Positions 50,265 to 62,722 of a stretch of DNA of 64,000 bases are shown here, piece by piece; the stretch's first letter is position 1; every line of letters begins with the position of its first letter. This DNA comes from Fidelibacterota bacterium (GTDB lineage Bacteria > Fidelibacterota > Marinisomatia > Marinisomatales > Marinisomataceae). The notes below the pieces were generated by a model. The model ran no database searches, was not told where the DNA came from, and saw nothing but the letters and a program-made list of their open reading frames with translations. Position numbers and translations under genes: made by a program. The stretch spans positions 5,988 through 69,987 of the forward strand of contig JAOIOW010000002.1 in NCBI GenBank assembly GCA_028140795.1. The letters are read 5' to 3'.

Positions 50265-51199
50265 ATAAGAATATTTGAACCTAAATCTTGATAACCTACA
50301 ATAAAATCTTTCGAATCCATTGCTTTTTTACCCTCTAATTGTACGTTATGAAGCCTTAATGCATTTTGACCACACTGAACATCAAAAAAATTTTTATCTA
50401 CATGATATATAGAACCAATTTCGTGATTATTATCATTATTAATTGACTCAGCTTTAAAGATTTTTAATCTTTTGCTATTTATGGTAGTAAAAGCACCAGG
50501 TGTAGGCGAGAAAGCCCTCACTTTAGCCAGTATTACATCTGACTTTTCATTCCAATTAATTTTTAAATCATCCTTTGAAATTTTAGGTGCTAAAGTAGCC
50601 ATACTATTATCTTGTTCAATTAATTCTGAAGAATGGTGCAAACATTTATTAATTGAAGATTCAATAAGATCTGCTCCAGCTTCACTTAATTTTTTTGATA
50701 AAGAACCATAATTATCATCTTTTGTTATTTCAATTTTTAATTGATCAATTATTTTTCCAGTATCAACTTTTGGTTCTATCAAAAAAGTGGAGACTCCTGT
50801 TGAATCTTCTTGATTTAATAATGCATGTTGAATTGGTGCGGCTCCTCTATATTTTGGTAGCAATGAAGAATGGATATTAATGGATCCATGTTTAGGTATT
50901 TCCAGTAAAGACTTTGGAAGAATTCTATACGCAACTACTACAAAAAAATCAGGATTTAAATCTTTAAGTTGATCAATTAAACTTGCGTCATTCAAATCTA
51001 CACCTTCAATAATTTTTAAATTCTCTTCCTTAGCTAAAGTCATCACAGGTGTATCAAGAATTTTTTGTCCACGACCCATTTTTTTTGATTTGTTTGTAAC
51101 AACTGCTTTAAGATTAAAACTGTTATTACAAGCTAGAAGAGTTGGGTTTGAAAAATCAGTATTACCAAAAAAAATTATATTTATATCTTTATTTGACAT
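50261..51199 (-). CDS. fmt: Methionyl-tRNA formyltransferase
   Basis: 312 aa with IIFFGNTDFS, the HSSLLPKYRGAAPIQ motif and a C-terminal beta-barrel domain. Confidence 0.9.
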   Translation of the reverse strand: MSNKDINIIFFGNTDFSNPTLLACNNSFNLKAVVTNKSKKMGRGQKILDTPVMTLAKEENLKIIEGVDLNDASLIDQLKDLNPDFFVVVAYRILPKSLLEIPKHGSINIHSSLLPKYRGAAPIQHALLNQEDSTGVSTFLIEPKVDTGKIIDQLKIEITKDDNYGSLSKKLSEAGADLIESSINKCLHHSSELIEQDNSMATLAPKISKDDLKINWNEKSDVILAKVRAFSPTPGAFTTINSKRLKIFKAESINNDNNHEIGSIYHVDKNFFDVQCGQNALRLHNVQLEGKKAMDSKDFIVGYQDLGSNILI

Positions 51200-51698
51200 T
51201 GCTTGATTTCATTAATTTAAGCGCCTTATCATATTTTAAAAGATCTGCAGGAGTAGCATAATCAGTTATTAATTTTCCATCGAGATGATCATTTTCATGT
51301 TGTATAACTGTGGCTAAAAAGCCGCTAAAAACCTTTATATGTTTTTCAAGGTTGTGATCTAAATATTCATATGTTATTGAATCATAGCGCTCTACATTGA
51401 TTCTAATTTCAGGCAATGAAAGACATCCTTCAGAATCAACACAAGATCCTTCACCACTAATTATTTTTCCATTGATAAATACTAAAGGAGATTCACATTC
51501 ATCTGTGTGAGATATATCTACTACAAATATGCGCTTATTTATTCCAATTTGGTTTGCTGCTAGTCCAATACCATCAAACTCATACATTGTATCGAATAAA
51601 TCATCAATTAAACTTCTAATGTTTGAAAAGTCTGTTATATTTTTTGATATTGCTCTAAGAGCAGAATGACCATATGTAACTACTTTTTGAACTGCCAT
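51189..51698 (-). CDS. def: Peptide deformylase
   Basis: 169 aa with GIGLAANQIG, EGCLS and HENDHLDG metal-binding motifs. Confidence 0.95.
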   Translation of the reverse strand: MAVQKVVTYGHSALRAISKNITDFSNIRSLIDDLFDTMYEFDGIGLAANQIGINKRIFVVDISHTDECESPLVFINGKIISGEGSCVDSEGCLSLPEIRINVERYDSITYEYLDHNLEKHIKVFSGFLATVIQHENDHLDGKLITDYATPADLLKYDKALKLMKSSNVK

Positions 51699-51701
51699 AA
51701 A

Positions 51702-52013
51702 TTATTTTGAGGAATTTTTAACTTTTGCAATTGCAACTCTGTCGACAGTCATTTCATTTTCATTAGATATTTTTATAATTACAGTTTCACTTTTTACCGC
51801 AGTAACTTTTCCATGAATTCCTCCAATAGTCACTACTCTATCTCCTTTTGCTAAATTTTCTTGCATCAATTTTACTGATTCTTGTTTTTTAGAATTAGGT
51901 CTTAGAATGAAATAGTATAACACTAAAAAAATTAGGAAGATTGGTAATTGGGAAAGAAAAATATCTAGAAAAGATGCTTCGCTTTGTTGCATTATTATTA
52001 TTTTTTGATTCAT
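51702..52013 (-). CDS. yajC: Preprotein translocase subunit YajC
   Basis: 103 aa with one TM helix, then KGDRVVTIGGIHGKV, which is characteristic of YajC. Confidence 0.8.
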   Translation of the reverse strand: MNQKIIIMQQSEASFLDIFLSQLPIFLIFLVLYYFILRPNSKKQESVKLMQENLAKGDRVVTIGGIHGKVTAVKSETVIIKISNENEMTVDRVAIAKVKNSSK

Positions 52014-52027
52014 GGACTAAAATTAGT

Positions 52028-54094
52028 TTACCTGAAGTTCTTTAACAAGACCATAACTTTGGGCTTAAAAAGATAAAAACACATGAAAAGCACAATAAGA
52101 TTTGAAACTGTATGTAAAATGTTAAATAAATCATTATCATATTCAAAAATTATCTTATTTGTTCCAGCTTTCACCTCTACTGCTCTCAAAACACCGTTTG
52201 CTCTAAAAACTTCTACTTCAGAGTCATCAATATAGGCTTTCCATCTAGCAGGATAATAAATTTCACTTAGCATTAATAGTCCTTTTTCATTTGCTTCATA
52301 ATCAATAATGATTGTTTCCACGTCCCAATCAATATTAAGAATTTTACCAATTGTATATCTTGAATCATCTAGTTTATCCACTATTGCAGTTTTTGATGGA
52401 TTAAATGCAGATGCGTTCAAATAATTATACAAATTTTGATCTTCTTTAATTACATCTTTTACAAACCACGCTCTTGGATTACTTTGATCTAAATTATAAA
52501 TATAAACTTTCTTTCTTCCATTGACTGATTGAAAAACGGACTCTTTTTCTAGTATTAGTTTGGGATGAGAAATTTCAACAGGGCTAATAAAATATTTTAC
52601 ATTTAAAAATTGTAATACTGGTATTGAAAGTAAGTTATTTGTGTTCTTTAGCAATTCAGAATAATGACCAAATTTTGCTGGATGATATCCTCCAACTGAT
52701 TCAATACCATGATATTTAAATTTTGGATCAGTAAACAAAGATCCTGCAGGGTAAATTCTATTTAAACTGAGGTTTTCTTTTAAAAAAATTATTGTTTCGT
52801 CCTCATTAAATACAGACTCAAAGCTTTCAATAGTTGCAATTTGATTTTGTTGGCCTGAATCTTGTCTTGGATTGATAATTCTACTATCAATCCTATATAT
52901 ATCAATCAAGGAAAGTATCAAAAATATATAATAAATGGTCTGTGTCTGAATTTGAGGAAATTTATTCTTAATTATTTCAAGAGTATCTTTTAAGCCATAA
53001 GCGCATAAGATATACATGCAAAAATTTGATACAATGAGTATCATGCTTGGAACTCTAAAGCTGCTAAAAAAAGGTAAATAATTATAGAAGAATTGGTAAA
53101 AGATTTCGAAATACTTTCCAAAAGATAATAGAATTGAAATTACTAATACCGTCCAAAAAAATAATCTCATGCTGTTTAACTTTCTACATGACAAAAAAGC
53201 AAATAATAGTACTGGCAATCCAACATAATTTGGGAAATCAGTAAAAGGCATAAAACCCGTATAAGTTGATCCTCCGAATCCAAAGAAATTAGGCAAGAGG
53301 TATGTCAATAATTCCTTAGGGTGCATAGACCAATTTGTTGCATAAGCAAAACTACCCATATTGCTAGATCTAATTGACATTTCACGGTAATCCAAGGATG
53401 GTAAGTAAATATGTGAAGCAATTAAGAATGCAATAATAATTCCTGAAAAGAATAAAGCAGCATATTTTTTATTTCTATTTTGATAAAAAGAATAAATGAA
53501 GAAAGATCCTAATAACATACAACTATAATAAGCTATTTGGACATGCGCTCTTTGTAATTGCAAGCCTAGAAACAAAGCAAATAAAAGCATATTGAAAATT
53601 GATTGCTCATCTTTCAATCTTAAAAGCAATAATAATGTAATTGGAAAAAAAGCAGCTGTCATCATCTGACTTCCATGCCCATAAACAATCATAGTGATTA
53701 AAAAAGGATTTAACATCCAAAGCAATCCTGAAATAAATGCAATTTTCTTATTTTGAATAAGCTTTTGAACCAAATAAAACATACTTGCTGCAGAAAAAAC
53801 TAGATGAATAAATTGAATATTTAAGTCTGAAACACCTAGCAAATCTAAAAAGTAGCTTGGCAGATATAGTAGATTGACATAAGTAAATGCTTCTAAGGTT
53901 GGCATTCCAGAAAAAATCCATGGTTGCCATTGTGGCCACTCTGATGAAGCTAATCTAATCTGATCAAGAATATGATGTATGGCATAAGGATTAAACGAGT
54001 CACCGGAGGCAAATGTATTTCCAAAGATTATAACATCATTAAAAAAGAATAGAACAAAAATAGTATAAATTAGTATTATGATAGAAAGATACAT
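52028..54094 (-). CDS. YfhO-like polytopic membrane glycosyltransferase (GT-C-like)
   Basis: 688 aa with about 12 TM helices in the N-terminal 400 aa and a large extracytoplasmic C-terminal domain plus a terminal TM. N-terminal GDSFNPY...WPQWQPWIFSGMPTLEAF resembles the YfhO family signature (recognised from memory). Confidence 0.55.
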   Translation of the reverse strand: MYLSIIILIYTIFVLFFFNDVIIFGNTFASGDSFNPYAIHHILDQIRLASSEWPQWQPWIFSGMPTLEAFTYVNLLYLPSYFLDLLGVSDLNIQFIHLVFSAASMFYLVQKLIQNKKIAFISGLLWMLNPFLITMIVYGHGSQMMTAAFFPITLLLLLRLKDEQSIFNMLLFALFLGLQLQRAHVQIAYYSCMLLGSFFIYSFYQNRNKKYAALFFSGIIIAFLIASHIYLPSLDYREMSIRSSNMGSFAYATNWSMHPKELLTYLLPNFFGFGGSTYTGFMPFTDFPNYVGLPVLLFAFLSCRKLNSMRLFFWTVLVISILLSFGKYFEIFYQFFYNYLPFFSSFRVPSMILIVSNFCMYILCAYGLKDTLEIIKNKFPQIQTQTIYYIFLILSLIDIYRIDSRIINPRQDSGQQNQIATIESFESVFNEDETIIFLKENLSLNRIYPAGSLFTDPKFKYHGIESVGGYHPAKFGHYSELLKNTNNLLSIPVLQFLNVKYFISPVEISHPKLILEKESVFQSVNGRKKVYIYNLDQSNPRAWFVKDVIKEDQNLYNYLNASAFNPSKTAIVDKLDDSRYTIGKILNIDWDVETIIIDYEANEKGLLMLSEIYYPARWKAYIDDSEVEVFRANGVLRAVEVKAGTNKIIFEYDNDLFNILHTVSNLIVLFMCFYLFKPKVMVLLKNFR

Positions 54095-54095
54095 T

Positions 54096-55607
54096 TTAAA
54101 TCAATTTTGTTTTAAATGAGTTAATTAGTTCTTTATCCTCCTCATCAAAACCCATTAAAAAATAAATAAGGAAATAAGTCAACAAAACCAATGCAAAATG
54201 AACTAGCAGGTAAACTATTAAACCTAATATGCTATCTAAACTAAATAGATTTAAAAAAATATTTTTGGCATTAGAGTAGATTAAAAATGTAATTAAACCA
54301 GATATAATTGGCTTAATAAGCTTTATTGAAAACAAATTCAATTTCATTAAAACTATATTTTCAATAAATCTTAAGATACTCAGAATAAATAGAGCTATCG
54401 CCGTTGATAAAGCTGCGCCTACTATACCATATAAAGGGATTAAAATATAATTCAATGAAATATTCAAAATCAGGGCGATTGAAACATTAATTAAATTAAT
54501 TGAAGTATTTCCGCTCATAGAAAGTGTTGATGAACCTAAACCAAAAATTGTTTGAATGAAAATTCCAGTTAATAGAATTTTTAATGCAAAAGCATTATCA
54601 AATTCTGAACCAAATAGCAATAACATTGGGCTTGCAAAAACAAATAAAAATATAAATACTGGCAAAGAAAACATTAAAATATACTTTGAGGAAGATTGAT
54701 AAGATTCTTTCATTCCTGGAATATTTTTATTGAAATAATGTTCTGAAAATATTGGTGCAAAAATTCCAGCAAAAGCAAATAAAATCATTCTAACTAGTCC
54801 AGCTGTTCGATCTATAGGATGATACATTCCCACATCAATAGCACTAGATAAAACTCCTAACATTACTATATCAACCCAATGCATAATAATGCCAATCGCC
54901 GAAACAAACATTAATGGTATAGAAAATCTTAAAATTTCTTCATCTACTTTAGAATTAATAATATTCTTAAGATTAATTTGTGCAAAATTTCTCAAAAATT
55001 TTACGATGAAGATTAAACCAATAACAGCAGAAGTTACTGTTGGTATCAAAATGGATAATTTTGTTCCGAGCAAATAATATGATGCTAAAAATCCAATCAA
55101 AAGCGTAAGAGGATTTACAATTTGATTAACAAAGATTTTATATTTTAAAATTTTAAACGCTTGGGTTGCAAAAGAAGATATTAGAGTTAAAACGGAAAAA
55201 GGAAGACTTATCGCAAATACTTTTATAACTGTTATTAAAAATTTATCTTCATTCAACAAATTATTAACAATGAAATCAGCAGATAAAAATAAAATAATAG
55301 AAATTATGATACTAGATAATAGTCCAGCTTTTAAAGATGAATAAATAGAATTATTAACATTCTCTGAATTTTCGGTATCTCTACTTACAAATCTTAAAAC
55401 ACCGTTATCAAGTCCCATTAATGCAAATATTTCTGCAATTCTTGTAACAGCATTTCCTAAAGAATAAATACCTAACATCTGTGCGCCAAGAAATCTTGCC
55501 ATTACTATTGAAAATATATATCTAAAAACTGAACCTAATGTCATTCCAGAGAATGAAATAAAAGCTTCGCTTAGAATTGTTTTCTGATTGGATGGTTTGC
55601 TGCTCAT
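54096..55607 (-). CDS. MOP-superfamily polysaccharide flippase (Wzx-like)
   Basis: 503 aa with about 14 TM helices. N-terminal FSGMTLGSVFRYIFSIVMARFLGAQMLGIYSL is typical of polysaccharide biosynthesis (PST) flippases. Confidence 0.7.
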   Translation of the reverse strand: MSSKPSNQKTILSEAFISFSGMTLGSVFRYIFSIVMARFLGAQMLGIYSLGNAVTRIAEIFALMGLDNGVLRFVSRDTENSENVNNSIYSSLKAGLLSSIIISIILFLSADFIVNNLLNEDKFLITVIKVFAISLPFSVLTLISSFATQAFKILKYKIFVNQIVNPLTLLIGFLASYYLLGTKLSILIPTVTSAVIGLIFIVKFLRNFAQINLKNIINSKVDEEILRFSIPLMFVSAIGIIMHWVDIVMLGVLSSAIDVGMYHPIDRTAGLVRMILFAFAGIFAPIFSEHYFNKNIPGMKESYQSSSKYILMFSLPVFIFLFVFASPMLLLFGSEFDNAFALKILLTGIFIQTIFGLGSSTLSMSGNTSINLINVSIALILNISLNYILIPLYGIVGAALSTAIALFILSILRFIENIVLMKLNLFSIKLIKPIISGLITFLIYSNAKNIFLNLFSLDSILGLIVYLLVHFALVLLTYFLIYFLMGFDEEDKELINSFKTKLI

Positions 55608-56452
55608 TTATTTCTTAAATATAACCATCTTATAAATTGAAATGGTAAATGAAATAATATCCAATAAATAGATATAGAAATTAATTGGATTCCTGTCGCA
55701 TGCTTCCAAAAGAGTTTCAATTGATTTTTTATCTTCATAAAATTTTTCTTTGAAGAATGTTCTCCATAAGATTGAGAAACATTATGAAGAATTACAGATT
55801 TTGGAGCATAAATTATATTTCTATTTAATTGACGAGCTTTTAATGATAAATCAACATCTTCACAGTACATATCAAATGTTTCGTCAAAAAAATTAAGTTT
55901 TTTTAAATCTTCAAATCTCAAGCACATACAACAACCAGTAGCATAATCTGTTTCATTTATGAATGAATATTTTGGTCCATCAAAATCTCTTATTCCAATA
56001 TGATAAATTAAACCCCTCCATAAATCTACAACACCTCCAGCGTACCAAATTTTATTGATATTTGATGAGTATAATATCTTTGGTGTTGAAATAATTGCTT
56101 TTTGATCTTTCGCTAAAGGATTAATTAATTCGTCAATAAAATTTCTGCTAACAATTGTATCGTCATTTAAAAGAATGATAAAATCATTATCATCAACATT
56201 TATTTTCTTTAAACCTTCGTTATATCCTCTGCCAAATTTAAAGTTTTTACTATTTTTTATTGTTTGAACATTCGGAAAATTTTCAGAAATCATTTTTAAT
56301 GAATCATCTGATGAATTATTGTCAATTACAGAAATAGTAAAATTTTTATGATCAACATTTTCAATTGATTCTAAACATCTTTTTAAAATTTTATTATTAT
56401 TCCATGTTAAAATAACAATGTGAACTTTATAAGATTCTGAATTTTCAATCAT
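55604..56452 (-). CDS. Family 2 glycosyltransferase
   Basis: VHIVILTWNN...VIDNNSSDDS...LLNDDTIV (DxD) is a GT2 fold. I chose the ATG at 56452 (8-nt overlap with the upstream gene) over the TTG at 56473 given in the ORF track. Confidence 0.8.
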   Translation of the reverse strand: MIENSESYKVHIVILTWNNNKILKRCLESIENVDHKNFTISVIDNNSSDDSLKMISENFPNVQTIKNSKNFKFGRGYNEGLKKINVDDNDFIILLNDDTIVSRNFIDELINPLAKDQKAIISTPKILYSSNINKIWYAGGVVDLWRGLIYHIGIRDFDGPKYSFINETDYATGCCMCLRFEDLKKLNFFDETFDMYCEDVDLSLKARQLNRNIIYAPKSVILHNVSQSYGEHSSKKNFMKIKNQLKLFWKHATGIQLISISIYWILFHLPFQFIRWLYLRNK

Positions 56453-57560
56453 AAAGCTGTAATGTTCTTTCAAATTCTTCCCAAGAAAAATTCTTTTTAT
56501 GGTTAGATATATTTTTAGTCATTATATCATACATATTATTTTTAAAAAACGAATGAATTGATAAGGCAACTTCATCTTCATTTGGATCTACAATATATCC
56601 AGTTTCTTTTTCAACAATATAATCTTTAAGCCCTCCTTTAGATGATACAATGGCAGGCAAATTAAAGTTCATAGAAAGCGATAGGATTCCACTTTGTGTT
56701 GCTTGCTTATATGGAAGAACGATTAAGTCTGAGCTAAGGAAATATTTGCTTAGATCTTCCTTGCTAACAAAGTTAGGATGAATTATAAATGAACTTTCAA
56801 GTCCATACTCTTTAATTTTATTCAAATAATTACTCAAATCAGTATACGGCTCACCTACTATAAAAACTTTCAAGTTTGGTATTTTTATTTTAAGGCGATT
56901 TACGGCATTAATTAATATATCTAAACCTTTATAAGGTCTAATGAGACCAAAAAATAGTATAGTTGGTTCAGATTTTAACCCAAGATTATTTTTAAATCTT
57001 TCTCGATCATCAATGTTGTAATCAATTTCATATATTGGATGAAATGAATTAATTATTTTAGCTTCTAAATTATATCTTTTGATTCTTTTCATTTCATTTT
57101 GATTCATAACTACTAGATGAGTTCCTTCTTTTAGCATTTTTTTTAGAAAAAAGTTTTGAAATGGAAAATTTTGATGAGATTTAGCATTATGAATTAAGAA
57201 GTAGACTTTTTTTGTATTTATTCTTTTAGCAATATATGAATACATCATAGAAAAAAAAGGGTGCCAATAAGAAAAAATGACGATATCTGTATTTAATTCA
57301 TTGATTTTTTTAATTGCTTTTCTCCAAGAAAAAATATTTAATGGATTTAAAATTCTTGACGATGAATTATTATTTGATACATTGTTTTTATATTGTGACT
57401 TGCCTGGAAAAAAAATTTTAGGATATAATTTTTTGAAATTTAAAATGGTTACATCATGACTATTTTTTAATTGAGTAACTAAATGATGATTAAAATCTGC
57501 AATACCACCTCTAAAAGGAGAATAAGGACCAATAGAAACAATTTTTAAATTATTATTCAA
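56445..57560 (-). CDS. Family 4 (GT-B) glycosyltransferase
   Basis: 371 aa. The N-terminal SPFRGGIADF and the C-terminal LPYKQATQSGILSLSMNFNLPAIVSSKGGLKDYIVEKETGYIV correspond to the GT4 EX7E region. Confidence 0.8.
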   Translation of the reverse strand: MNNNLKIVSIGPYSPFRGGIADFNHHLVTQLKNSHDVTILNFKKLYPKIFFPGKSQYKNNVSNNNSSSRILNPLNIFSWRKAIKKINELNTDIVIFSYWHPFFSMMYSYIAKRINTKKVYFLIHNAKSHQNFPFQNFFLKKMLKEGTHLVVMNQNEMKRIKRYNLEAKIINSFHPIYEIDYNIDDRERFKNNLGLKSEPTILFFGLIRPYKGLDILINAVNRLKIKIPNLKVFIVGEPYTDLSNYLNKIKEYGLESSFIIHPNFVSKEDLSKYFLSSDLIVLPYKQATQSGILSLSMNFNLPAIVSSKGGLKDYIVEKETGYIVDPNEDEVALSIHSFFKNNMYDIMTKNISNHKKNFSWEEFERTLQLYD

Positions 57561-58476
57561 TTACTTCTTTAATGAAATTTTTTGTTTTGTGATTTTTATT
57601 TACAATTATTTCACCAATTAATCCAAAGGTAAATAATTGCACACCAGTAATTATTAACAAGCTCCCAAAAATTATCATAGCTATGTGTTGTTGAAAAGAG
57701 TGGAGCAAAACATACTTACAATAAAGAATATATATTTCTGCTATTAAGCCAAATAATATTGATAAAAATCCAACCATTCCAAAAAAATGCAATGGTCTGT
57801 CCATATACTTTCCAAGAAATAAGATTGTCATAAAATCAAAAAAACCATGTTTATATCTTTCAGCTCCATATTTTGATTTCCCAAATTTTCGTTCTCTATG
57901 ATTTACAGGTATTTCCTTTACATTAAACCCTTTCTGATGAGCTAATAAAGGGATATATCTATGTCTACCTCCATAAAGATTTAAAGACTTGGCCACTTCT
58001 TTTTTTAAGACCTTAATTCCGGAGTTTGAATCTTTAATTTTTAATCCACTAAAAAGTTTTATAAAAAAATTAAATATTTTTGATGCAATTTTTTTCTCTA
58101 AAGGATCTAATCTATCTTTCTTCCATCCTACAATTACGTCATCTTCATTTAATTCACGAACAAGATTGATAAGTTCTTTTGGATCATCTTGAAGATCACC
58201 ATCTAATGTAGCTATTAATTCATTTGAAGCAATATCAATGCCGGATTGAAGTGCTACAGACTTTCCATAGTTTCTATAAAGGTTAATGAGCTTCCATGTA
58301 GAATGATTTGCGATTTCATTTTCAATCACTTTTTGAGACATATCTGACGAACCATCATTAATAAAAATAATTTCAATTGATTGATTATTCTCAAAACTGT
58401 TTTTCAACTCTTCAAATAATGCCTGAAGAGATTCTTCCTCATTATATATTGGTATAAGTATAGATAAGCTTTTCAT
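57553..58476 (-). CDS. Polyprenol-phosphate glycosyltransferase (GtrB/DPM1/ArnC-like GT2 with two C-terminal TM helices)
   Basis: 307 aa with LSILIPIYNEEESL, INDGSSD and LDGDLQDDP (DxD). Two C-terminal TM helices (FFGMVGFLSILFGLIAEIYIL and MIIFGSLLIITGVQLFTFGLIGEI). Confidence 0.8.
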   Translation of the reverse strand: MKSLSILIPIYNEEESLQALFEELKNSFENNQSIEIIFINDGSSDMSQKVIENEIANHSTWKLINLYRNYGKSVALQSGIDIASNELIATLDGDLQDDPKELINLVRELNEDDVIVGWKKDRLDPLEKKIASKIFNFFIKLFSGLKIKDSNSGIKVLKKEVAKSLNLYGGRHRYIPLLAHQKGFNVKEIPVNHRERKFGKSKYGAERYKHGFFDFMTILFLGKYMDRPLHFFGMVGFLSILFGLIAEIYILYCKYVLLHSFQQHIAMIIFGSLLIITGVQLFTFGLIGEIIVNKNHKTKNFIKEVIE

Positions 58477-59036
58477 TATTCAAAATTTCTTCTATTAAAT
58501 TTTAATGTATAGTTCTGTTTATCATTATTAAGTAAAAATACAATCTCGTTCAGATAATTACTACCATCAATTGAAATCAACTTAGTTGTAATGACGTATG
58601 AATTTCTCAATTGAATATCGACTTTACTTAAAGCTTCAGTATCTCCCCAAAGAATACTTTTGTAGAAATTTGAATTCAATTGATTTGATAAAGGGAAAAA
58701 TCTATTAAACTCCTCTTGGGAGATTTCAACTTTTTTGCGGACATTTAAATATCTAATTGAATCATTATTTACTTCAATCATATACTGTCTTCTTCCCAAA
58801 AAATCTTTGAACACGATAATTGAATTATTTCCAGAAGATTCAAAAATAAATGGTGAAGAAAAATTTGATTTTCCTTTTCCCTGTAAAACACCATTGCCAA
58901 TAACTCTATTAAAATTTTTTTCTAATTCCTCAATTTTAATATTTTCAGAATCTATTACTTGGATGTTATTATTGGTGGAGCATGAAGCAAAAATAACTGC
59001 AAATACGACAATTATAAGTTTTTTATTGAGATTCAT
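58476..59036 (-). CDS. Lipoprotein, possibly LolB/DUF4292-like
   Basis: I prefer Met14 of the ORF (MNLNKKLIIVVFAVIFASCS), which gives a lipobox. The ~170-aa mature part shows the pattern GKGKSNFSSPFIFESS..SIIVFKDFLGRRQYMIEVNNDSIRYLN, reminiscent of LolB-fold DUF4292 proteins that sit next to TPR proteins in FCB genomes (recognised from memory). Confidence 0.4.
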   Translation of the reverse strand: MNLNKKLIIVVFAVIFASCSTNNNIQVIDSENIKIEELEKNFNRVIGNGVLQGKGKSNFSSPFIFESSGNNSIIVFKDFLGRRQYMIEVNNDSIRYLNVRKKVEISQEEFNRFFPLSNQLNSNFYKSILWGDTEALSKVDIQLRNSYVITTKLISIDGSNYLNEIVFLLNNDKQNYTLKFNRRNFE

Positions 59037-60633
59037 ATGAAGAAATCTTTGTTTGTAGCTGTTCGTTATCTTCATCTAACAACAATGCTTTGTTATAAAA
59101 AATAAGTGCTTCATCTATTTCTTCTACACTTATTAATACATCTCCATAGTGCTCAAGAATTACCGCGCTTGAATCATCATATATTAATGCTTGAGCAATA
59201 AAATCTTTCGCTTTTTCAAATTCAGATAATTTGTAATAAATCCATCCAATTGTATCTAAGTAAGCTGATACATCTGGGCTTATTTGTATAGCTTTTTCAG
59301 CGAGAGTCAAAGCATATTCTAGATCTTCATCTCTTTCAACTAGGCTATATGCAAAATTATTATACGCTTGTGCATCTCTGTCATTCAAAGCAATTAATTT
59401 TGTGTACAACTCGTCAGATTTATCCCATTTTTCAATTTGATCATATGTCATTGCTAAGCCATGCATAGCTGCTACAGATTTTTGATCAATTAATAATGAC
59501 TTACTGTAGAATTGTTCTGCTTCATTAAAATTTCTTGCCGAATAATTTGCTAATCCCAAAAAATAATTTACTTCAAAGTCGTTCGGAAATATTGATACCG
59601 CTATATTAAGCTCATCTATTGCCTCAGAGAAATTTTGTAAACTTATTAATGCAATAGATGAATTAATATATCCTTCCTTATCATTAGGATAATAAGAAGT
59701 ATGCTTCTTTGATACTTCTAATGCTAAGTCATTTCTACCTATATCTCTGTATACCAATGACAAGTAATATAGAGCAAACCTATCATTATCCTTTTGTGAT
59801 AAGGACTTTTGCAAAAATTCTTCTGCAGAATCTAATTTTCCAATTCTTAGATATTCCAGTGCTATTTGATTATATAGATTATTATAAAATGGATTTGCTT
59901 TAATAGAATCTAGATTTAATAACTCAAGCAACTCTTCAATATTTCCACCTTCATTCGATTCAAGAAAACCTCTCATGTATTCTGAATTAGAAGGGTCTGC
60001 TAAAAGGAGTTTTTTAAATATCTTTGATAATTCTCTATGATTTGAATTATATGCTAATTCTGCTGCGACCTCCAAAGCCAAAATTAAGTCATTATTCTTG
60101 TTATAGGCTTCTTGATAGTAAAGCAATGCTCCATCAATATCATTTAACTCAGCTTTTAAATCTCCAATGATAAACAGCACATCAGCATTATTAGGATCGC
60201 TTTCAATTATTTGATTAAAAATCAACAAAGAAGATTCATAATCATTTAAGGCAATAAACTTTTTTCCTAATGAAATCTTATAATCTAATGCATTTTCATC
60301 CATTGCAATTGCTTGATTGGCAAATACAATACTTTTTTCAAACTTTTGCAACATCCAGTATGCTTCGGACATATTAAATAAGACTTCTGCAGAATTTGAA
60401 CCAGCATCAATAGCGTCCTGAAACTCTAAAATTGCTCTTGCATAATCACCCTGTTCAAAAAACATCATTCCGTCCATGAAAAATTGAACACCACCGAAAG
60501 GATCAATTGAATCTATAGTTTTTTCTTCTTTTTTAGATTCTTCAGTGTACGATTTGGGTAATTCTAAAGATGTTGAAGCGCAATTTGCTAAAAAAATTGT
60601 GGAAATTGTAATTATTAAGTATTTCATTTTCAT
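59023..60633 (-). CDS. TPR-repeat lipoprotein
   Basis: 536 aa with the lipobox TIFLANC, then a continuous series of 34-aa TPR-like repeats (A..Y...G.....A...F..AL..DP). Confidence 0.8.
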   Translation of the reverse strand: MKMKYLIITISTIFLANCASTSLELPKSYTEESKKEEKTIDSIDPFGGVQFFMDGMMFFEQGDYARAILEFQDAIDAGSNSAEVLFNMSEAYWMLQKFEKSIVFANQAIAMDENALDYKISLGKKFIALNDYESSLLIFNQIIESDPNNADVLFIIGDLKAELNDIDGALLYYQEAYNKNNDLILALEVAAELAYNSNHRELSKIFKKLLLADPSNSEYMRGFLESNEGGNIEELLELLNLDSIKANPFYNNLYNQIALEYLRIGKLDSAEEFLQKSLSQKDNDRFALYYLSLVYRDIGRNDLALEVSKKHTSYYPNDKEGYINSSIALISLQNFSEAIDELNIAVSIFPNDFEVNYFLGLANYSARNFNEAEQFYSKSLLIDQKSVAAMHGLAMTYDQIEKWDKSDELYTKLIALNDRDAQAYNNFAYSLVERDEDLEYALTLAEKAIQISPDVSAYLDTIGWIYYKLSEFEKAKDFIAQALIYDDSSAVILEHYGDVLISVEEIDEALIFYNKALLLDEDNEQLQTKISSYESQ

Positions 60634-60681
60634 AACTATGCAAATTACATCCGAGATTGGATATTTACAATTCTATGAAAA

Positions 60682-61149
60682 TTAATCTTTATCGCTTACA
60701 AATGATCCATTAACATCATTTAATAGCTCAACATCTTTAATTTCAGTATCCTCTTCTTCAGATATATTTTCTTGCGTTACTGATTCTTCATCCGCTATAA
60801 AATAGTTTGATTGAGAAGGTTGAATTAAATAAGCTGAGAGCATGAAAATACAAAGTATAGACAATGTAAGATAAAGAAAGTTTTGTCTTGAGAATCCCAT
60901 AATTCCACTACTTACATTTTGATTATCATTTAATGCATTAATACGATCTTGAAGGTTTTTATCAAAACTATCGGAAGTTTTTAAAGAAGGAGCAGTTTTC
61001 ATAATATTCATTGCATTTCGAACATCATCAACTTTTTTCTTATGTTCAGGATTTTCAGCAAGATATTTTTCAAACTCCTTGCGTTCTTTAATATCCATTG
61101 AATTTTCAATCCAGTCAGATATTCTATCCTCAAATTTATTATAATCCAT
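60682..61149 (-). CDS. Anti-sigma factor (single-pass membrane)
   Basis: 155 aa immediately downstream (2-nt gap) of the ECF sigma gene. N-terminal helical anti-sigma-like region (ISDWIENSMDIKERKEFEKYLAENPEHKKKVDD), one TM helix (FLYLTLSILCIFMLSAYLI) and a short acidic tail. Confidence 0.6.
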   Translation of the reverse strand: MDYNKFEDRISDWIENSMDIKERKEFEKYLAENPEHKKKVDDVRNAMNIMKTAPSLKTSDSFDKNLQDRINALNDNQNVSSGIMGFSRQNFLYLTLSILCIFMLSAYLIQPSQSNYFIADEESVTQENISEEEDTEIKDVELLNDVNGSFVSDKD

Positions 61150-61151
61150 AA

Positions 61152-61721
61152 CTACTCCTTAAAATGTTTCATTTTTTCAGCCAACTGAATACGACCTCTA
61201 TTTATTCTAGATTTGATCGTACCAATCGGTATTTCCAGTATTTTACTTATTTCTTCATAGGAAAGTTCCTGAAAATCTCTCAAGACTACAGCCATTCTAA
61301 AATTTTCGGGAATCTCATCTAAAAATTTGTTTAATTGATCAATTGCAATTTCATTTTGGACTTTAGAATCCAAAGATTCTTCTTTAGAATTAATATCGAT
61401 AACCTGTCCATCATCAGTCCATAAGGAATCGGTCTTCTTCCTTTTATTTTTTCTTAATTCGGTTAACGCGTTATTTTTTGCGATTGTAAAAATCCAAGTT
61501 GAAAATTTTGCAACATTCTTATAATAGCTTGCATGAGTGTATAATTTAATTAATGTATCTTGCACTACATCTTCTGCCTGCTCAACATTATTGAAATATC
61601 TTAATACAAAGTTTAATAGCCTATCTTTGTATCTTTTAACAAGCTCGTTATATGCGTTAATATCTCCTTCTTGAAATCTTAAAATTAACTTTTCATCAGA
61701 ATATTTAAATTTATCATTCAT
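61152..61721 (-). CDS. ECF-type RNA polymerase sigma-70 family factor
   Basis: Region 2 is DVVQDTLIKLY...FSTWIFTIAKNNALTELRK. Region 4 is LSYEEISKILEIPIGTIKSRINRGR. I chose the start at Met16 (61721, 8-nt overlap with holA); the ORF track start is 61766. Confidence 0.85.
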   Translation of the reverse strand: MNDKFKYSDEKLILRFQEGDINAYNELVKRYKDRLLNFVLRYFNNVEQAEDVVQDTLIKLYTHASYYKNVAKFSTWIFTIAKNNALTELRKNKRKKTDSLWTDDGQVIDINSKEESLDSKVQNEIAIDQLNKFLDEIPENFRMAVVLRDFQELSYEEISKILEIPIGTIKSRINRGRIQLAEKMKHFKE

Positions 61722-62712
61722 GTCGGAAAGCTCCGTTGATAATGTTTGTAAATTCTGTCTCATCAATTATTTTCTGTGTTTTTAATTTAATGTCAGTTTG
61801 AGCAAAGATATTAATCGCATGCTCCAGCTCATCAAGTGAATAGTTATTTGTTGCTGGGCTTATTCTTTTTAATAAATTCCCTCTAATACTTCTACTTGAT
61901 GATTCAATTAAAGTTCCATTATTTTTTTTGGTAATAAAAATTGCCTCTAATAAAGTGAACATAGAATTAATCACATACGAAAGACCGTATTGTTTCATGA
62001 TTGATAAACCATTTTCGAAAATTGCATCAACTCTCCTATCGCATATTGCATAATTTAATTCCCATAACTGCTTTTCTTTATGAATATTGCCTGATTTTTC
62101 AAGAGCATTCAGAAGATCTTTTTCATCGCTTGACACTAAACTTGATTTAGACATCTCATTAAAAATTTCTGAGAAGTTGTTTCCAAAAATTTCAATAATT
62201 TTTTGAGTATATGTATCTGAAACTTTCAGATTTAATTCATTTGCAAATAAATGTATCCAATGTTTCATTTCACTCTCGAAAGGAGTAGAAATATCAACGA
62301 CATCCATTACTTTTGCATATTCTTTAGTAACGGAACTTTTGATAGTATTTGATTTAGATTTATAATCATATGATAAAAAATTATTGTCTATAAAGATGAT
62401 TTGGTCTGAACTATCTGAATCAAAACTGTTAAGAAGAAGTTCTGAATTTTTCTTATTTAGCTTATTTATATTTTTGATAATTATGAGCTTATCGCATGAA
62501 AATAAATCTTGAGATCCAAGCACATTCATCAATTGATCTAAGGAATCGCTTTTATCTGCACAGTCAAATACAAATGTTTCATCCTTTTTTTGCAATTTTT
62601 TAACTATTTGATTCTTTATAAATAGATATAAAAAATCATTATCCCCAACTAGTAGATAGTTATTACTAAAAGATTGATTTTTATCAGAGAGAAATTGTAA
62701 AGCTTTAATCAT
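61714..62712 (-). CDS. holA: DNA polymerase III delta subunit
   Basis: 332 aa. N-terminal NYLLVGDNDFLYLFIKNQI...DLFSCDKLIIIKNI matches the HolA pattern, and the C-terminal domains are helical. Confidence 0.6.
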   Translation of the reverse strand: MIKALQFLSDKNQSFSNNYLLVGDNDFLYLFIKNQIVKKLQKKDETFVFDCADKSDSLDQLMNVLGSQDLFSCDKLIIIKNINKLNKKNSELLLNSFDSDSSDQIIFIDNNFLSYDYKSKSNTIKSSVTKEYAKVMDVVDISTPFESEMKHWIHLFANELNLKVSDTYTQKIIEIFGNNFSEIFNEMSKSSLVSSDEKDLLNALEKSGNIHKEKQLWELNYAICDRRVDAIFENGLSIMKQYGLSYVINSMFTLLEAIFITKKNNGTLIESSSRSIRGNLLKRISPATNNYSLDELEHAINIFAQTDIKLKTQKIIDETEFTNIINGAFRHE

Positions 62713-62722
62713 ATTTTTTCAA

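What the first reader, a model, noticed from the sequence alone, without database searches (positions are those of the whole stretch)
52028..58476. Five-gene envelope glycosylation cluster with GtrB-like + flippase + YfhO-like logic and no known acceptor
Five consecutive minus-strand genes are joined by junctions ranging from an 8-nt overlap to a 1-nt gap.
- A polyprenol-phosphate glycosyltransferase: GT2 head (DGDLQDD) plus two C-terminal TM helices, GtrB/DPM1/ArnC-like.
- A GT4 glycosyltransferase.
- A GT2 glycosyltransferase.
- A 14-TM MOP/Wzx-type flippase.
- A 688-aa YfhO-like polytopic protein with a large extracytoplasmic domain.

GtrB-type synthase plus a flippase plus a GT-C/YfhO-type transferase is the established three-component scheme for glycosylating polymers outside the membrane. 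Known examples are CsbB/YfhO and GtlA/GtlB acting on teichoic acids in Firmicutes, and Gtr acting on O-antigen in enterics. This organism looks diderm (LptF/G, LolB-like lipoprotein, DsbD) and should lack teichoic acids. The acceptor is therefore unknown; it could be LPS/LOS, a glycoprotein, an S-layer or peptidoglycan. Combining this scheme with a Wzx-type flippase and two cytoplasmic GTs suggests that a short oligosaccharide, not a single sugar, is built on the lipid carrier.
Basis: partly seen in the sequence, partly recalled or inferred. Interest (0 to 1): 0.6.

Follow-up and report, generated by a model that had tools for sequence, protein, structure and literature searches.

The report
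Conserved lipid-linked periplasmic glycosylation gene cluster
A tiny-genome marine bacterium (SAR406/Marinimicrobia) keeps five adjacent genes that most likely build a short sugar chain on a membrane lipid, flip it across the inner membrane and attach it to an unidentified envelope target; its last enzyme belongs to the family recently predicted, without experiments, to be the long-missing protein-glycosylating enzyme of Bacteroidota.

Summary
Five minus-strand genes sit at the stated coordinates: a GtrB/ArnC-type polyprenyl-phosphate glycosyltransferase, a GT4, a GT2, a 14-TM PST/MOP flippase and a 688-aa GT-C enzyme.

The tight junctions say little in this compact genome; the synteny does. 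GtrB-like and YfhO-like genes occur in 93/95 and 92/95 high-quality Marinimicrobia genomes. They lie 1-18 kb apart in all 65 genomes where they share a contig. GT4-GT2-MOP-YfhO recurs in Chlorobiaceae.

This is not an O-antigen/EPS locus. A classical capsule locus sits on another contig, and only 3 of 9 genus genomes have its priming enzyme.

In most genus genomes this cluster holds the only primer besides MraY and the only Wzx-type flippase. That favours a GtrB-primed oligosaccharide, as in Lactococcus Wps.

The acceptor is unresolved. The Bacteroidota sequon is not enriched, no Ser/Thr-rich linkers were found, and a second GT-C (TMEM260-like) exists.

The genus has no recognisable MurJ or Amj, so the MOP protein may flip lipid II instead, or as well.

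This scan noted the same module before on other DNA, and a 2026 preprint predicts Bacteroidota YfhO is the O-oligosaccharyltransferase.

The parts
57553..58476 (-). Polyprenyl-phosphate glycosyltransferase (GtrB/ArnC/DPM1 type): GT2 catalytic head with DGDLQDD and two C-terminal TM helices. Proposed primer that loads a sugar onto undecaprenyl phosphate.
   Evidence: PF00535 at 90 bits. NCBIfam best hits ArnC 152, PgfS 110 and AglJ 90 bits, all below the equivalog cut-offs. Full-length alignment to solved ArnC (2.7e-38), GtrB (1e-25) and DPMS (6e-14). Found in 93/95 high-quality Marinimicrobia genomes and 80/81 sampled Bacteroidota genomes.
56445..57560 (-). GT4 glycosyltransferase (GT-B fold, no TM helix). 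Proposed cytoplasmic elongation of the lipid-linked sugar.
   Evidence: PF00534 at 82 bits and PF13692 at 68 bits. No hydrophobic segment. Contiguous with the GtrB-like and GT2 genes across Marinimicrobia, and with GT2-MOP-YfhO in Chlorobiaceae.
55604..56473 (-). GT2 glycosyltransferase (GT-A fold, no TM helix). Proposed second cytoplasmic elongation step. The start is TTG at 56473 or ATG at 56452.
   Evidence: PF00535 at 78 bits. Weak best NCBIfam hit to the rhamnosyltransferase subfamily (43 bits, far below cut-off). 36-52% identical orthologs in syntenic position in Marinimicrobia and Chlorobiaceae. A paralog sits beside the genome's second GT-C.
54096..55607 (-). 14-TM MOP-superfamily (PST/Wzx-type) flippase. 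Proposed to flip the lipid-linked glycan. It is also the only recognisable candidate for lipid II flipping in this genus.
   Evidence: Polysacc_synt 81 bits and Polysacc_synt_3 69 bits. AF2 pLDDT 89.4. Foldseek: MurJ 7wax TM 0.82/0.81; WzxE TMq 0.70. The gene ends at the start of the YfhO homolog in about 66 of 80 related loci. No MurJ or Amj in the genus.
52028..54094 (-). YfhO-type GT-C glycosyltransferase. N-terminal polytopic domain (about residues 1-407) with invariant D32 just after TM1, a periplasmic alpha/beta plus beta-sandwich domain (about 408-654) and a C-terminal TM helix (655-687). Proposed periplasmic transferase.
   Evidence: AF2 pLDDT 84.5, pTM 0.85. Foldseek top hits are all GT-C. 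D32 is invariant in 35 sequences down to 25% identity. PF09586 match is C-terminal only, 27.5/30.7 bits, the same pattern as Bacteroidota YfhO. Found in 92/95 high-quality Marinimicrobia genomes.
59023..60633 (-). TPR-repeat lipoprotein (536 aa). Conserved upstream neighbour of the GtrB-like gene across Marinimicrobia. Functional association is possible but not shown.
   Evidence: TPR families and a lipobox. Syntenic directly upstream of the GtrB-like gene in many Marinimicrobia families. Not present beside the Chlorobiaceae cluster.
58476..59075 (-). 199-aa lipoprotein of unknown function, between the TPR lipoprotein and the GtrB-like gene. By tblastn it is detectable only within the genus.
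   Evidence: Signal/lipobox-like N-terminus and no significant family. Homologs found only in same-genus loci L035 and L036.
60682..61766 (-). ECF sigma factor (61152-61766) and putative anti-sigma factor (60682-61149) heading the array. Possible regulator; not tested.
   Evidence: Sigma70_r2/r4 and ECF hits, plus a weak anti-sigma hit. The ECF sigma is conserved upstream of TPR-GtrB in distant Marinimicrobia families.

Best explanation
The five genes encode a lineage-core glycosylation pathway that depends on a lipid carrier and ends in the periplasm.

Step 1, supported by strong homology: the GtrB/ArnC/DPM1-type enzyme transfers one sugar from a nucleotide sugar to undecaprenyl phosphate at the cytoplasmic face. 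This gives a monophosphate-linked Und-P-sugar.

Step 2, inferred: the soluble GT4 and GT2 extend this primer to a short oligosaccharide of about three sugars.

Step 3, inferred: the 14-TM PST/MOP protein flips the lipid-linked glycan to the periplasmic face.

Step 4, supported at fold level with the chemistry inferred: the YfhO-type GT-C enzyme transfers the glycan to an acceptor in the periplasm. Its catalytic carboxylate is probably the invariant D32 in the first periplasmic loop.

There is no polymerase and no chain-length regulator, so the product is a short glycan and not a polymer.

The acceptor is a conserved envelope component, not the strain-variable capsule. I rank periplasmic or outer-membrane proteins (Ser/Thr O-glycosylation) and the LPS/LOS core about equally (roughly 0.3 each). 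Peptidoglycan or another target is less likely.

The donor sugar is unknown. Mannose is plausible, because the window also encodes a phosphomannomutase and a PGI/PMI.
For: - Enzyme identities: GtrB-like; GT-C fold; flippase fold.
- Catalytic residue: D32 is invariant after TM1.
- Linkage: GtrB-like occurs in 93/95 and YfhO-like in 92/95 high-quality Marinimicrobia genomes. In all 65 genomes where both lie on one contig they are 1-18 kb apart (hand tabulation).
- Synteny: the gene order is identical within the genus. GtrB-GT4-GT2-(insert)-MOP-YfhO holds across order and class. GT4-GT2-MOP-YfhO has overlapping junctions in Chlorobiaceae among unrelated housekeeping genes.
- Co-occurrence in Bacteroidota: GtrB-like and YfhO-like are each in 80/81 sampled genomes, and the same genome (G178) lacks both. 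They lie about 1 kb apart in several lineages.
- Primer and flippase inventory in the genus: Bac_transf in only 3/9 genomes; PF00953 is MraY only in 8/9; a single PST flippase, this one, in 7/9. So in most of these genomes GT4 and GT2 have no recognisable primer other than the GtrB-like product, and this flippase has no recognisable partner primer other than GtrB or MraY.
- Not a polymer locus: there is no Wzy_C in the genus, and Wzc, Wzi, Wzx and Bac_transf sit on contig C1.
- Precedents: Lactococcus WpsA/B, WpsC-F, WpsG and WpsJ, with elongation on GlcNAc-P-C55 shown biochemically (PMC10821137); GacI/GacK/GacL (PMC8035078); GtrB/PgtC2 protein glucosylation (PMC12041528).
- Mannose route in the window: PMM (PF03332) and PGI/PMI.
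Against: - Nothing here is biochemical. The donor sugar, the lipid linkage and the acceptor are all inferred.
- The MOP gene is not conserved with YfhO outside Marinimicrobia and Chlorobia. Its distribution tracks lineages without canonical MurJ. It superposes best on full-length MurJ. It could therefore be the lipid II flippase rather than the glycan flippase.
- In many Bacteroidota and some Marinimicrobia the arrangement is only GtrB-X-YfhO, or YfhO stands alone. That fits monosaccharide transfer.
- The window's protein sits in a different subclade from most Bacteroidota YfhO.
- For a protein acceptor: the Bacteroidota sequon D-(S/T)-(A/I/L/V/M/T) is not enriched in predicted exported proteins (O/E 0.91, against 1.28 in a small Bacteroidota control). 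No long Ser/Thr-rich linkers were found. The genome has a second GT-C of the TMEM260-like protein O-mannosyltransferase family.
- The own genome is only about 86% complete.
Confidence: 0.6

Rival explanations
1. Two pathways lie side by side. GtrB-like plus YfhO-like form a minimal DPM1/PMT-like or CsbB/YfhO-like pair that transfers a single sugar from Und-P-sugar. The MOP protein is the lineage's lipid II flippase, a replacement for MurJ. GT4 and GT2 serve another glycan, for example the LPS core.
For: - No PF03023 MurJ match in the own genome or in three same-genus genomes that are 97-99% complete, and no Amj.
- Only 2 of 61 Marinimicrobia genomes and 0 of 9 Chlorobiaceae genomes have a strong MurJ hit.
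- The divergent MurJ-like ORFs of larger relatives have no ortholog here; their only hits are to this MOP gene.
- No other unassigned MOP-like polytopic ORF was found.
- The model superposes on full-length 14-TM MurJ at TM 0.82.
- MOP orthologs are missing from most Bacteroidota that keep GtrB and YfhO.
- GtrB-X-YfhO arrangements without MOP exist.
Against: - By sequence the protein is PST/Wzx-type. It scores 81 bits to Polysacc_synt, has no PF03023 hit, and its profile finds WzxE and MATE but not MurJ in the PDB.
- The GT4-GT2-MOP-YfhO block stays contiguous in two deeply separated lineages even where GtrB is unlinked.
- In most genus genomes GT4 and GT2 have no recognisable primer other than the GtrB-like product.
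- A flippase with two substrates would reconcile both readings.
Confidence: 0.25
2. The cluster is the core of an FCB-type general protein O-glycosylation system. The YfhO-type enzyme is the O-oligosaccharyltransferase, as predicted for Bacteroidota, and it moves the GtrB-primed glycan onto Ser/Thr of periplasmic and outer-membrane proteins.
For: - Full-length homologs occur in 80/81 sampled Bacteroidota genomes with the same C-terminal-only PF09586 signature.
- A preprint predicts YfhO is the missing OTase and reports it as essential in Bacteroidales (10.64898/2026.07.27.740950).
- A review states that the core-glycan genes, the core flippase and the OTase are undiscovered, and that the pathway resembles eukaryotic O-mannosylation (PMC12871550).
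- YfhO-family enzymes do O-glycosylate proteins in streptococci (PMC12041528).
- The cluster is conserved as a lineage-core trait in a 1-Mb genome.
- A PMM and PGI/PMI route is present.
Against: - The sequon shows no enrichment here, although the positive control is only marginal.
- No Ser/Thr-rich linkers were found.
- A TMEM260-like GT-C with a helical-repeat domain is a competing protein O-mannosyltransferase candidate.
- The window's protein lies in a different subclade from most Bacteroidota YfhO.
- The preprict reports no YfhO in P. gingivalis, which nevertheless O-glycosylates proteins. Given how borderline the Pfam scores are, a divergent copy could have been missed.
Confidence: 0.3
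3. The glycan is attached to lipid A-core. It would be a WaaL-independent decoration or short O-unit on LOS, analogous in logic to ArnC/ArnT or to Gtr modification of LPS.
For: - The organism makes LPS: LpxC and LptF/G are present.
- No Wzy_C/WaaL family member was found in the genus, including genomes that are 98-99% complete.
- The GtrB-like enzyme's closest solved relative is ArnC.
- The cluster is conserved like a core envelope function.
Against: - No ArnT/PMT_2-family enzyme was found, and the small genome shows no Ara4N pathway.
- No YfhO-family enzyme is known to act on LPS (from the papers read here: PMC5836110, PMC8035078, PMC12041528).
- The cluster is not linked to lpx, waa or lpt genes.
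Confidence: 0.3
4. It is an ordinary Wzx/Wzy-dependent O-antigen, capsule or EPS locus, or an accessory decoration of the capsule.
For: It contains a Wzx-type flippase and three GTs. A capsule locus exists in this genome.
Against: - The cluster has no priming phosphoglycosyltransferase, no Wzy and no Wzz/Wzc.
- Those functions sit on contig C1 with their own Wzx.
- The capsule locus's primer is found in only 3 of 9 genus genomes, whereas this cluster is in all of them.
- The cluster is embedded in housekeeping genes and conserved across phyla.
Confidence: 0.03

Closest known systems
Lactococcus Wps pathway for the polysaccharide pellicle (WpsA/WpsB, WpsC-F, WpsG, WpsJ; PMC10821137)
   Same: A GtrB/GacI-type enzyme primes undecaprenyl MONOphosphate with a sugar. 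Cytoplasmic GTs elongate on that carrier. A Wzx-type flippase exports it. A GT-C enzyme transfers it to the acceptor.
   Different: - Wps is Gram-positive, and the acceptor is cell-wall rhamnan.
- The Wps primer is soluble and needs the membrane partner WpsB. Here the synthase carries its own two TM helices.
- Wps has a polymerase and regulator (WpsI/WpsH); none is present here.
- WpsJ's relationship to the YfhO family was not compared here.
CsbB/GtcA/YfhO and GtlA/GtlB teichoic-acid glycosylation (PMC5836110); GtrB/PgtC2 and PgfS/PgfM1/M2 protein O-glycosylation in streptococci (PMC12041528)
   Same: A GtrB-type Und-P-sugar synthase is paired with a YfhO-family GT-C that acts outside the cytoplasm. 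The synthase-to-GT-C gene linkage is also shared.
   Different: - Those systems transfer single sugars, use GtrA-type or unknown flippases, and are found in monoderms.
- The protein here matches the Pfam YfhO model only over its last ~80 residues, at threshold.
- It is accompanied by two cytoplasmic GTs and a PST flippase.
- The organism is a diderm with LPS and no teichoic-acid genes. No Glyphos_transf was found in the own genome.
Bacteroidota YfhO, predicted O-oligosaccharyltransferase of the phylum-wide general O-glycosylation system (bioRxiv 10.64898/2026.07.27.740950; reviews PMC12871550 and PMC6120980)
   Same: - Full-length homology in both the N- and C-terminal domains, at 25-33% identity.
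- The same C-terminal-only Pfam signature.
- Single copy in most sampled genomes, and near-universal in its phylum.
- Co-occurrence with a GtrB-like synthase.
   Different: - The window's protein is in a separate subclade shared with Chlorobia and is about 140 aa shorter.
- In most Bacteroidota the gene stands alone rather than with GT4-GT2-MOP.
- The Bacteroidota function is itself only predicted.
- The sequon is not enriched here.
Gtr (GtrA/GtrB/GtrC) O-antigen glucosylation and ArnC/ArnE-F/ArnT lipid A modification in enterics
   Same: The three-step logic in a diderm is the same. The GtrB-like enzyme is a clear homolog of ArnC and GtrB.
   Different: - Those systems are accessory or stress-induced, whereas this cluster is lineage-core.
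- They use small GtrA or EmrE-like flippases.
- Their GT-Cs belong to other families; no PMT_2 hit was found here.
- They have no cytoplasmic elongating GTs.
Haloferax volcanii Agl N-glycosylation (AglJ, AglG/I/E, AglR, AglB); recalled from my own knowledge, with NCBIfam AglJ hit
   Same: A DPM1/GtrB-type enzyme (AglJ; 90-bit hit) primes a polyprenyl monophosphate. Soluble GTs extend it, and a GT-C transfers it en bloc.
   Different: It is archaeal, uses a dolichol carrier, and the transferase is STT3/AglB acting on Asn. Only the logic is related.

Membership tests
YfhO family (Pfam PF09586) | Score over the Pfam gathering threshold, ideally across the whole 835-position model | tested here: inconclusive
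   27.5 bits, below the 28.5 cut-off, in hmmscan; 30.7 bits in the six-frame genome search. Only residues 586-664 match, at profile positions 757-835. Bacteroidota proteins that are called YfhO show the same partial pattern at 28-42 bits.
YfhO family (Pfam PF09586) | GT-C fold: an N-terminal polytopic domain with an acidic catalytic residue in the first extracytoplasmic loop, plus an extracytoplasmic domain | tested here: met
   AF2 pLDDT 84.5. All top Foldseek hits are GT-C enzymes, with E down to 2.8e-6 and TM 0.40-0.46. D32 is invariant in alignments A1, A2 and A3.
YfhO family (Pfam PF09586) | Works with a CsbB/GtrB-type Und-P-sugar synthase | tested here: met
   This is genomic linkage only. 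The genes are adjacent or within 18 kb in 65 of 65 same-contig pairs in Marinimicrobia. Both occur in 80/81 Bacteroidota genomes, with a shared absence in G178.
YfhO family (Pfam PF09586) | Transfers sugar from Und-P-sugar to teichoic acid or to protein Ser/Thr | not testable with these tools
   Needs biochemistry or genetics.
Three-component Gtr-type periplasmic glycosylation | GtrB-type membrane-anchored polyprenyl-phosphate glycosyltransferase | tested here: met
   Full-length alignment with ArnC, GtrB and DPMS, TM helices included.
Three-component Gtr-type periplasmic glycosylation | Small GtrA-type flippase | tested here: not met
   The only transporter in the cluster is a 503-aa, 14-TM PST/MOP protein. 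It is comparable to GacK and WpsG rather than to GtrA.
Wzx/Wzy-dependent O-antigen, capsule or EPS locus | Initiating phosphoglycosyltransferase (WbaP/PglC or WecA type) in the locus | tested here: not met
   None among the 17 genes of the run. The single Bac_transf is on contig C1. The only PF00953 member lies beside the mur genes.
Wzx/Wzy-dependent O-antigen, capsule or EPS locus | Wzy polymerase and a Wzz/Wzc chain-length regulator nearby | tested here: not met
   No Wzy_C hit anywhere in the genome. The Wzz/Wzc gene is at C1:284707-286878, in a separate locus with Wzi, Wzx and Rml genes.
MurJ lipid II flippase family (PF03023 / TIGR01695) | Sequence membership | tested here: not met
   No PF03023 hit. 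TIGR01695 scores 24.7 bits against a 235 cut-off. The family profile does not find MurJ in the PDB.
MurJ lipid II flippase family (PF03023 / TIGR01695) | 14-TM architecture including TM13-14 | tested here: met
   Foldseek 7wax TMq 0.82 and TMt 0.81 over about 510 residues. WzxE covers only the 12-TM core.
Bacteroidota general protein O-glycosylation | Use of the D-(S/T)-(A/I/L/V/M/T) sequon on exported proteins, tested here only as enrichment | tested here: not met
   O/E 0.91 (z -1.3) in 159 predicted exported proteins, against 1.01 in cytoplasmic ones. A small Bacteroidota control gave 1.28 (z 1.9). The signal-peptide heuristic is crude and the control marginal, so this is weak evidence.
Lactococcus Wps-type monophosphate-linked oligosaccharide pathway | [quoted passage not shown] | tested here: met
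   Gene content and the genus inventory of primers and flippases. The chemistry was not tested.

The most novel reading that the evidence does not exclude
The cluster is a complete, compact version of the missing core machinery of FCB-type general protein O-glycosylation. A GtrB-type enzyme primes undecaprenyl MONOphosphate, GT4 and GT2 finish a small core glycan, the PST protein is the unidentified core-glycan flippase, and the YfhO-type GT-C is the O-oligosaccharyltransferase. Marinimicrobia and Chlorobia would then name, by gene neighbourhood, candidates for the primer, core GTs, flippase and OTase that have been sought in Bacteroidota for more than 15 years. A second novel reading is also not excluded: the same PST protein is the lipid II flippase of lineages that have no MurJ.
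Probability: 0.2. Interest if true: 0.85.

Novelty: new variant of a known kind. Interest (0 to 1): 0.58.

Why it matters
Multi-component transmembrane glycosylation (a lipid-phosphate-sugar synthase, a flippase and a GT-C) is well described in Gram-positives and for LPS modification. For the YfhO branch in diderm FCB bacteria there is only a 2026 in-silico prediction.

Here the YfhO-type enzyme sits in one compact block with a primer, two elongating GTs and a flippase. The block is a lineage-core trait even in a ~1-Mb genome and recurs in Chlorobiaceae. That gives independent gene-neighbourhood support for a lipid-linked glycan transfer role.

It also makes the question testable. The partner genes suggest which reactions to reconstitute. 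Genetically tractable green sulfur bacteria carry the same block.

The finding exposes a second open question: which protein flips lipid II in Marinimicrobia and Chlorobiaceae, where no canonical MurJ is recognisable.

Marinimicrobia are abundant in the ocean, so a conserved surface glycan also bears on phage and grazer recognition.

Tried and rejected
- A very diverse alignment (A2) had no block conserved enough for the search for related loci; a closer one (A3) worked.
- A locus id is not accepted as a centre for the genome search; I used its genome handle instead.
- Sequence profiles of the GT-C family (A3) and the MOP family (A4) found no informative solved relatives; only fold comparison did.
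- The sequon enrichment test was negative, with only a marginal positive control.
- The scan for Ser/Thr-rich segments found no convincing linkers.
- The search for hidden lipid II flippases (MurJ, Amj, divergent MurJ-like ORFs of relatives, all large polytopic ORFs) found nothing beyond this MOP gene, a MATE pump, FtsW/RodA and one unassigned 401-aa ORF.
- An Arn-like reading was rejected: no PMT_2/ArnT-type enzyme was found.
- A teichoic-acid-like reading was rejected for this genome: no Glyphos_transf was found, although larger relatives carry a TagF-like gene in the cluster.
- The standard EPS or O-antigen reading was rejected.
- The careful tree search did not finish in time, so the quick IQ-TREE result was used.

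Full report
**Observation**

The five ORFs exist exactly as described, all on the minus strand:

| Coordinates | Length | Assignment |
|---|---|---|
| 57553-58476 | 307 aa | GtrB/ArnC-type polyprenyl-phosphate glycosyltransferase |
| 56445-57560 | 371 aa | GT4 |
| 55604-56473 | 289 aa | GT2 |
| 54096-55607 | 503 aa | PST/MOP flippase |
| 52028-54094 | 688 aa | YfhO-type GT-C |

The junctions are an 8-nt overlap, a 29-nt overlap (8 nt if the ATG at codon 8 is the start), a 4-nt overlap and a 1-nt gap.

The genes belong to a run of about 17 co-directional genes (47502-64000) with equally tight spacing. Upstream lie holA-like, ECF sigma, anti-sigma, a TPR lipoprotein and a 199-aa lipoprotein. Downstream lie yajC, def, fmt, a PASTA protein, a 314-aa ORF and hflX. 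Tight spacing is therefore the norm here and is not in itself evidence of a functional unit.

The organism is a streamlined Marinimicrobia (SAR406). The region is about 99% identical to "Ca. Marinimicrobia bacterium CM1_5m.P33". GC is about 28%. The assembly is 0.92 Mb at about 86% completeness.

**Identities**

- The 307-aa protein aligns over its whole length, both C-terminal TM helices included, with solved ArnC (E 2.7e-38), GtrB sll0501 (1e-25) and archaeal DPMS (6e-14). It carries the DGDLQDD metal/donor motif. No NCBIfam equivalog threshold is reached, so the sugar is unknown.
- The GT4 and GT2 have no TM segments.
- The 503-aa protein is PST/Wzx-type by Pfam.
- The 688-aa protein reaches the Pfam YfhO model only at threshold, and only over its last ~80 residues (27.5 and 30.7 bits).
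- Its AF2 model, built on 33 homologs (pLDDT 84.5, pTM 0.85), has an N-terminal polytopic domain, a periplasmic domain of about 245 residues and a final TM helix.
- Every significant PDB fold match is a GT-C glycosyltransferase: AftD, PglB, STT3, AftA, ALG12 and ArnT.
- D32, just after TM1, is invariant down to 25% identity. This is the position where GT-C enzymes carry their catalytic carboxylate.

**Not an ordinary polysaccharide locus**

- The own genome has no Wzy_C/WaaL-family gene. Neither do two same-genus genomes that are 98-99% complete.
- The single Bac_transf primer, a Wzc-type regulator, Wzi, a second Wzx, RmlA/B/D and a candidate Wzy form a classical capsule locus on another contig, C1 at about 272-295 kb.
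- That locus is accessory. Bac_transf occurs in only 3 of 9 genomes of the genus, and a second PST flippase in only 2 of 9.

The second refuting condition is also not met.

**Comparative evidence**

- *Prevalence.* The YfhO-type gene is in 137/151 Marinimicrobia genomes (92/95 high-quality). The GtrB-like gene is in 140/151 (93/95).
- *Linkage.* I tabulated the listed coordinates of both searches. In all 65 genomes where the two genes share a contig they lie 1-18 kb apart. The other 23 pairs are split across contigs in fragmented assemblies.
- *Gene order.* Within the genus the 16-gene order is identical. Across order and class the pattern is GtrB-GT4-GT2-(about 4 kb)-MOP-YfhO-(about 1.3 kb)-yajC-def-fmt. 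In more distant families it is ECF sigma ... TPR-GtrB-(one GT)-YfhO.
- *Insert.* The ~4-kb insert of a larger relative holds sulfotransferases and a TagF-like CDP-glycerol glycerophosphotransferase. The window's genome lacks these.
- *Chlorobiaceae.* The closest relatives outside the phylum are in Chlorobiaceae, at 35-43% identity. There GT4-GT2-MOP-YfhO is again contiguous. In Chlorobium it has overlapping junctions and sits between obg/GNAT and unrelated housekeeping genes. GtrB-like homologs at 43-45% identity are present but unlinked.
- *MOP adjacency.* The MOP gene ends at the start of the YfhO homolog in about 66 of 80 related loci.
- *Tree.* A quick ML tree places the window's protein in a well-supported clade (98) made of the Marinimicrobia lineages that carry this block. 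All Chlorobia nest inside that clade, which suggests lateral transfer of the block. Other Marinimicrobia families group with the remaining Bacteroidota (quick search only).

**Relation to Bacteroidota YfhO**

- In a sample of the Chlorobium-containing phylum, 80/81 genomes have a full-length homolog (25-33% identity, both domains, 800-890 aa).
- These homologs give the same C-terminal-only PF09586 signature at 28-42 bits. They are what the literature calls YfhO in Bacteroidota.
- The GtrB-like gene is likewise in 80/81 genomes. The one genome lacking it also lacks YfhO.
- In several non-Chlorobi lineages the two genes lie about 1 kb apart. In one of them a methyltransferase lies between them and a GT4-type gene follows.
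- Elsewhere the YfhO gene stands alone.

**What is known**

- YfhO with CsbB glycosylates lipoteichoic acid (PMC5836110).
- YfhO-family PgtC2 with GtrB, and PgfM1/M2 with PgfS, O-glycosylate Ser/Thr-rich regions of streptococcal envelope proteins (PMC12041528).
- Wzx-type flippases already figure in such systems (GacK; PMC8035078).
WpsA/B make GlcNAc-P-C55, cytoplasmic GTs elongate on the monophosphate carrier, WpsG flips it and the GT-C WpsJ attaches it (PMC10821137).
- For Bacteroidota, reviews state that the conserved core glycan's genes, its flippase and the OTase are undiscovered, and that the pathway resembles eukaryotic O-mannosylation (PMC12871550; PMC6120980).
- A July 2026 preprint predicts, in silico only, that YfhO is that OTase.
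- This scan has noted the same module on other DNA.

**Oligosaccharide or single sugar?**

In most genomes of the genus the only lipid-carrier primers are MraY and this GtrB-like enzyme, and the only PST flippase is this one. GT4 and GT2 are cytoplasmic and stay contiguous with either the primer or the flippase and GT-C across two deep lineages. The most economical reading is a GtrB-primed, GT4/GT2-extended glycan that is flipped and transferred. With no polymerase present, the glycan stays short. This is inference, not demonstration.

**The flippase caveat**

- The genus has no recognisable MurJ and no Amj.
- Only 2 of 61 Marinimicrobia genomes and 0 of 9 Chlorobiaceae genomes give a strong MurJ hit.
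- Larger relatives have a separate, divergent ~490-aa MurJ-like ORF. Its only (weak) hits in the window's genome fall on this MOP gene.
- No other candidate emerged among the large polytopic ORFs.
- The MOP model (pLDDT 89.4) superposes on full-length 14-TM MurJ at TM 0.82, and on WzxE only over the 12-TM core.
- True orthologs are absent from most Bacteroidota that keep GtrB and YfhO.
- Against this, by sequence the protein is PST-type and shows no affinity to MurJ.

It may flip the glycan, lipid II or both. I give the "two pathways side by side" rival a confidence of 0.25.

**Acceptor**

- The capsule is unlikely, because it is accessory while the cluster is universal.
- For proteins, the Bacteroidota sequon is not enriched in predicted exported proteins (O/E 0.91; cytoplasmic 1.01). 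A small Bacteroidota control gave 1.28 (z 1.9).
- There are no long Ser/Thr-rich linkers.
- The genome has a second GT-C, a 959-aa TMEM260-like member of the protein O-mannosyltransferase family with a helical-repeat domain. It is followed by a paralog of the cluster's GT2. No second GtrB-type synthase was recognised among the genome's GT2 genes. The one beside the TMEM260-like gene has no TM helix, and the own genome gave a single strong GtrB-like match. The cluster's synthase may therefore feed both GT-Cs.
- LPS/LOS remains possible: LpxC and LptF/G are present, and no WaaL was found.
- A mannose route (PMM and PGI/PMI) lies in the same window.

I rank protein and LPS core about equally.

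**Verdict**

- It is not new as a principle: Wps, Gac and PgtC2 are precedents, and the scan and a preprint have already pointed at FCB YfhO.
- What this window adds is a compact, lineage-core, cross-phylum block that nominates partner genes and makes the question testable, together with an unexplained absence of MurJ.

Noticed in passing
window 54096-55607; own genome G000 as a whole; Marinimicrobia and Chlorobiaceae samples: No canonical lipid II flippase is recognisable. PF03023 MurJ is absent from the own genome and from three same-genus genomes that are 97-99% complete, and Amj is absent from 9/9 genus genomes. Only 2/61 Marinimicrobia and 0/9 Chlorobiaceae genomes give a strong MurJ hit. 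The cluster's MOP gene is the only MOP-family flippase found in every genus genome.
   Followed up: partly
G000:C1:317979-321871 (outside the window): A second GT-C enzyme: 959 aa, PF11028 TMEM260-like protein O-mannosyltransferase family (185 bits), with a C-terminal helical-repeat domain. It is directly followed by a 337-aa GT2 that is a paralog of the cluster's GT2 (32% identity, E 2e-35). No dedicated GtrB-type synthase lies next to it.
   Followed up: partly
G000:C1 about 272000-295000 (outside the window): A classical capsule/EPS locus: Wzi, Wzx, RmlA/B/D, a UDP-glucose dehydrogenase-like gene, a 444-aa candidate Wzy with no Pfam hit, Wzc and Bac_transf. It appears to be accessory, because Bac_transf is found in only 3 of 9 genomes of the genus.
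   Followed up: partly
L038:3136-7348 (relative G063, same order): Larger-genome relatives carry two to four sulfotransferase genes and a TagF-like CDP-glycerol glycerophosphotransferase (228 bits) between GT2 and the flippase. That hints at a sulfated and/or glycerol-phosphate-bearing glycan there. The streamlined genus has lost these genes.
   Followed up: partly
L042:11562-19346 (relative G017, distant family): In a distant Marinimicrobia family the YfhO gene is followed by an aminoglycoside-N-acetyltransferase-like gene, a DUF7033 gene, an asparagine-synthase-like gene, a PGA_cap gene, a PST flippase and a further 395-aa ORF that was not annotated. This is a larger, differently decorated version of the locus.
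   Followed up: no
tree; loci L079-L133, L171, L172: All Chlorobia YfhO proteins nest inside one Marinimicrobia clade, as sister to families f2, f5 and f6. Marinimicrobia YfhO proteins split into two subfamilies. This suggests lateral transfer of the GT4-GT2-MOP-YfhO block and/or replacement between subfamilies. Only a quick tree with midpoint rooting was made.
   Followed up: partly
window 24221-26866: A bifunctional PGI/PMI (bact-PGI_C), a trans-polyprenyl diphosphate synthase and a eukaryote-type phosphomannomutase (PF03332, 100 bits) lie together. They could supply mannose for the glycosylation pathway.
   Followed up: partly
G085:C15:2169-11136 (relative, family f23): Three YfhO-type genes lie in tandem on one contig, about 16 kb from the GtrB-like gene. 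This is a local expansion of the GT-C.
   Followed up: no
window 49545-50264 and 48604-49548: A 239-aa protein made of one TM helix and three PASTA repeats, with no kinase or transpeptidase domain, and a 314-aa ORF with only a weak ABC_transp_aux hit. The PASTA gene stays syntenic downstream of fmt in distant Marinimicrobia.
   Followed up: no
G000:C5:105779-106984 (outside the window): A 401-aa ORF with about 9 hydrophobic segments and no Pfam hit. It is the only large polytopic protein of the genome that stayed unassigned.
   Followed up: no
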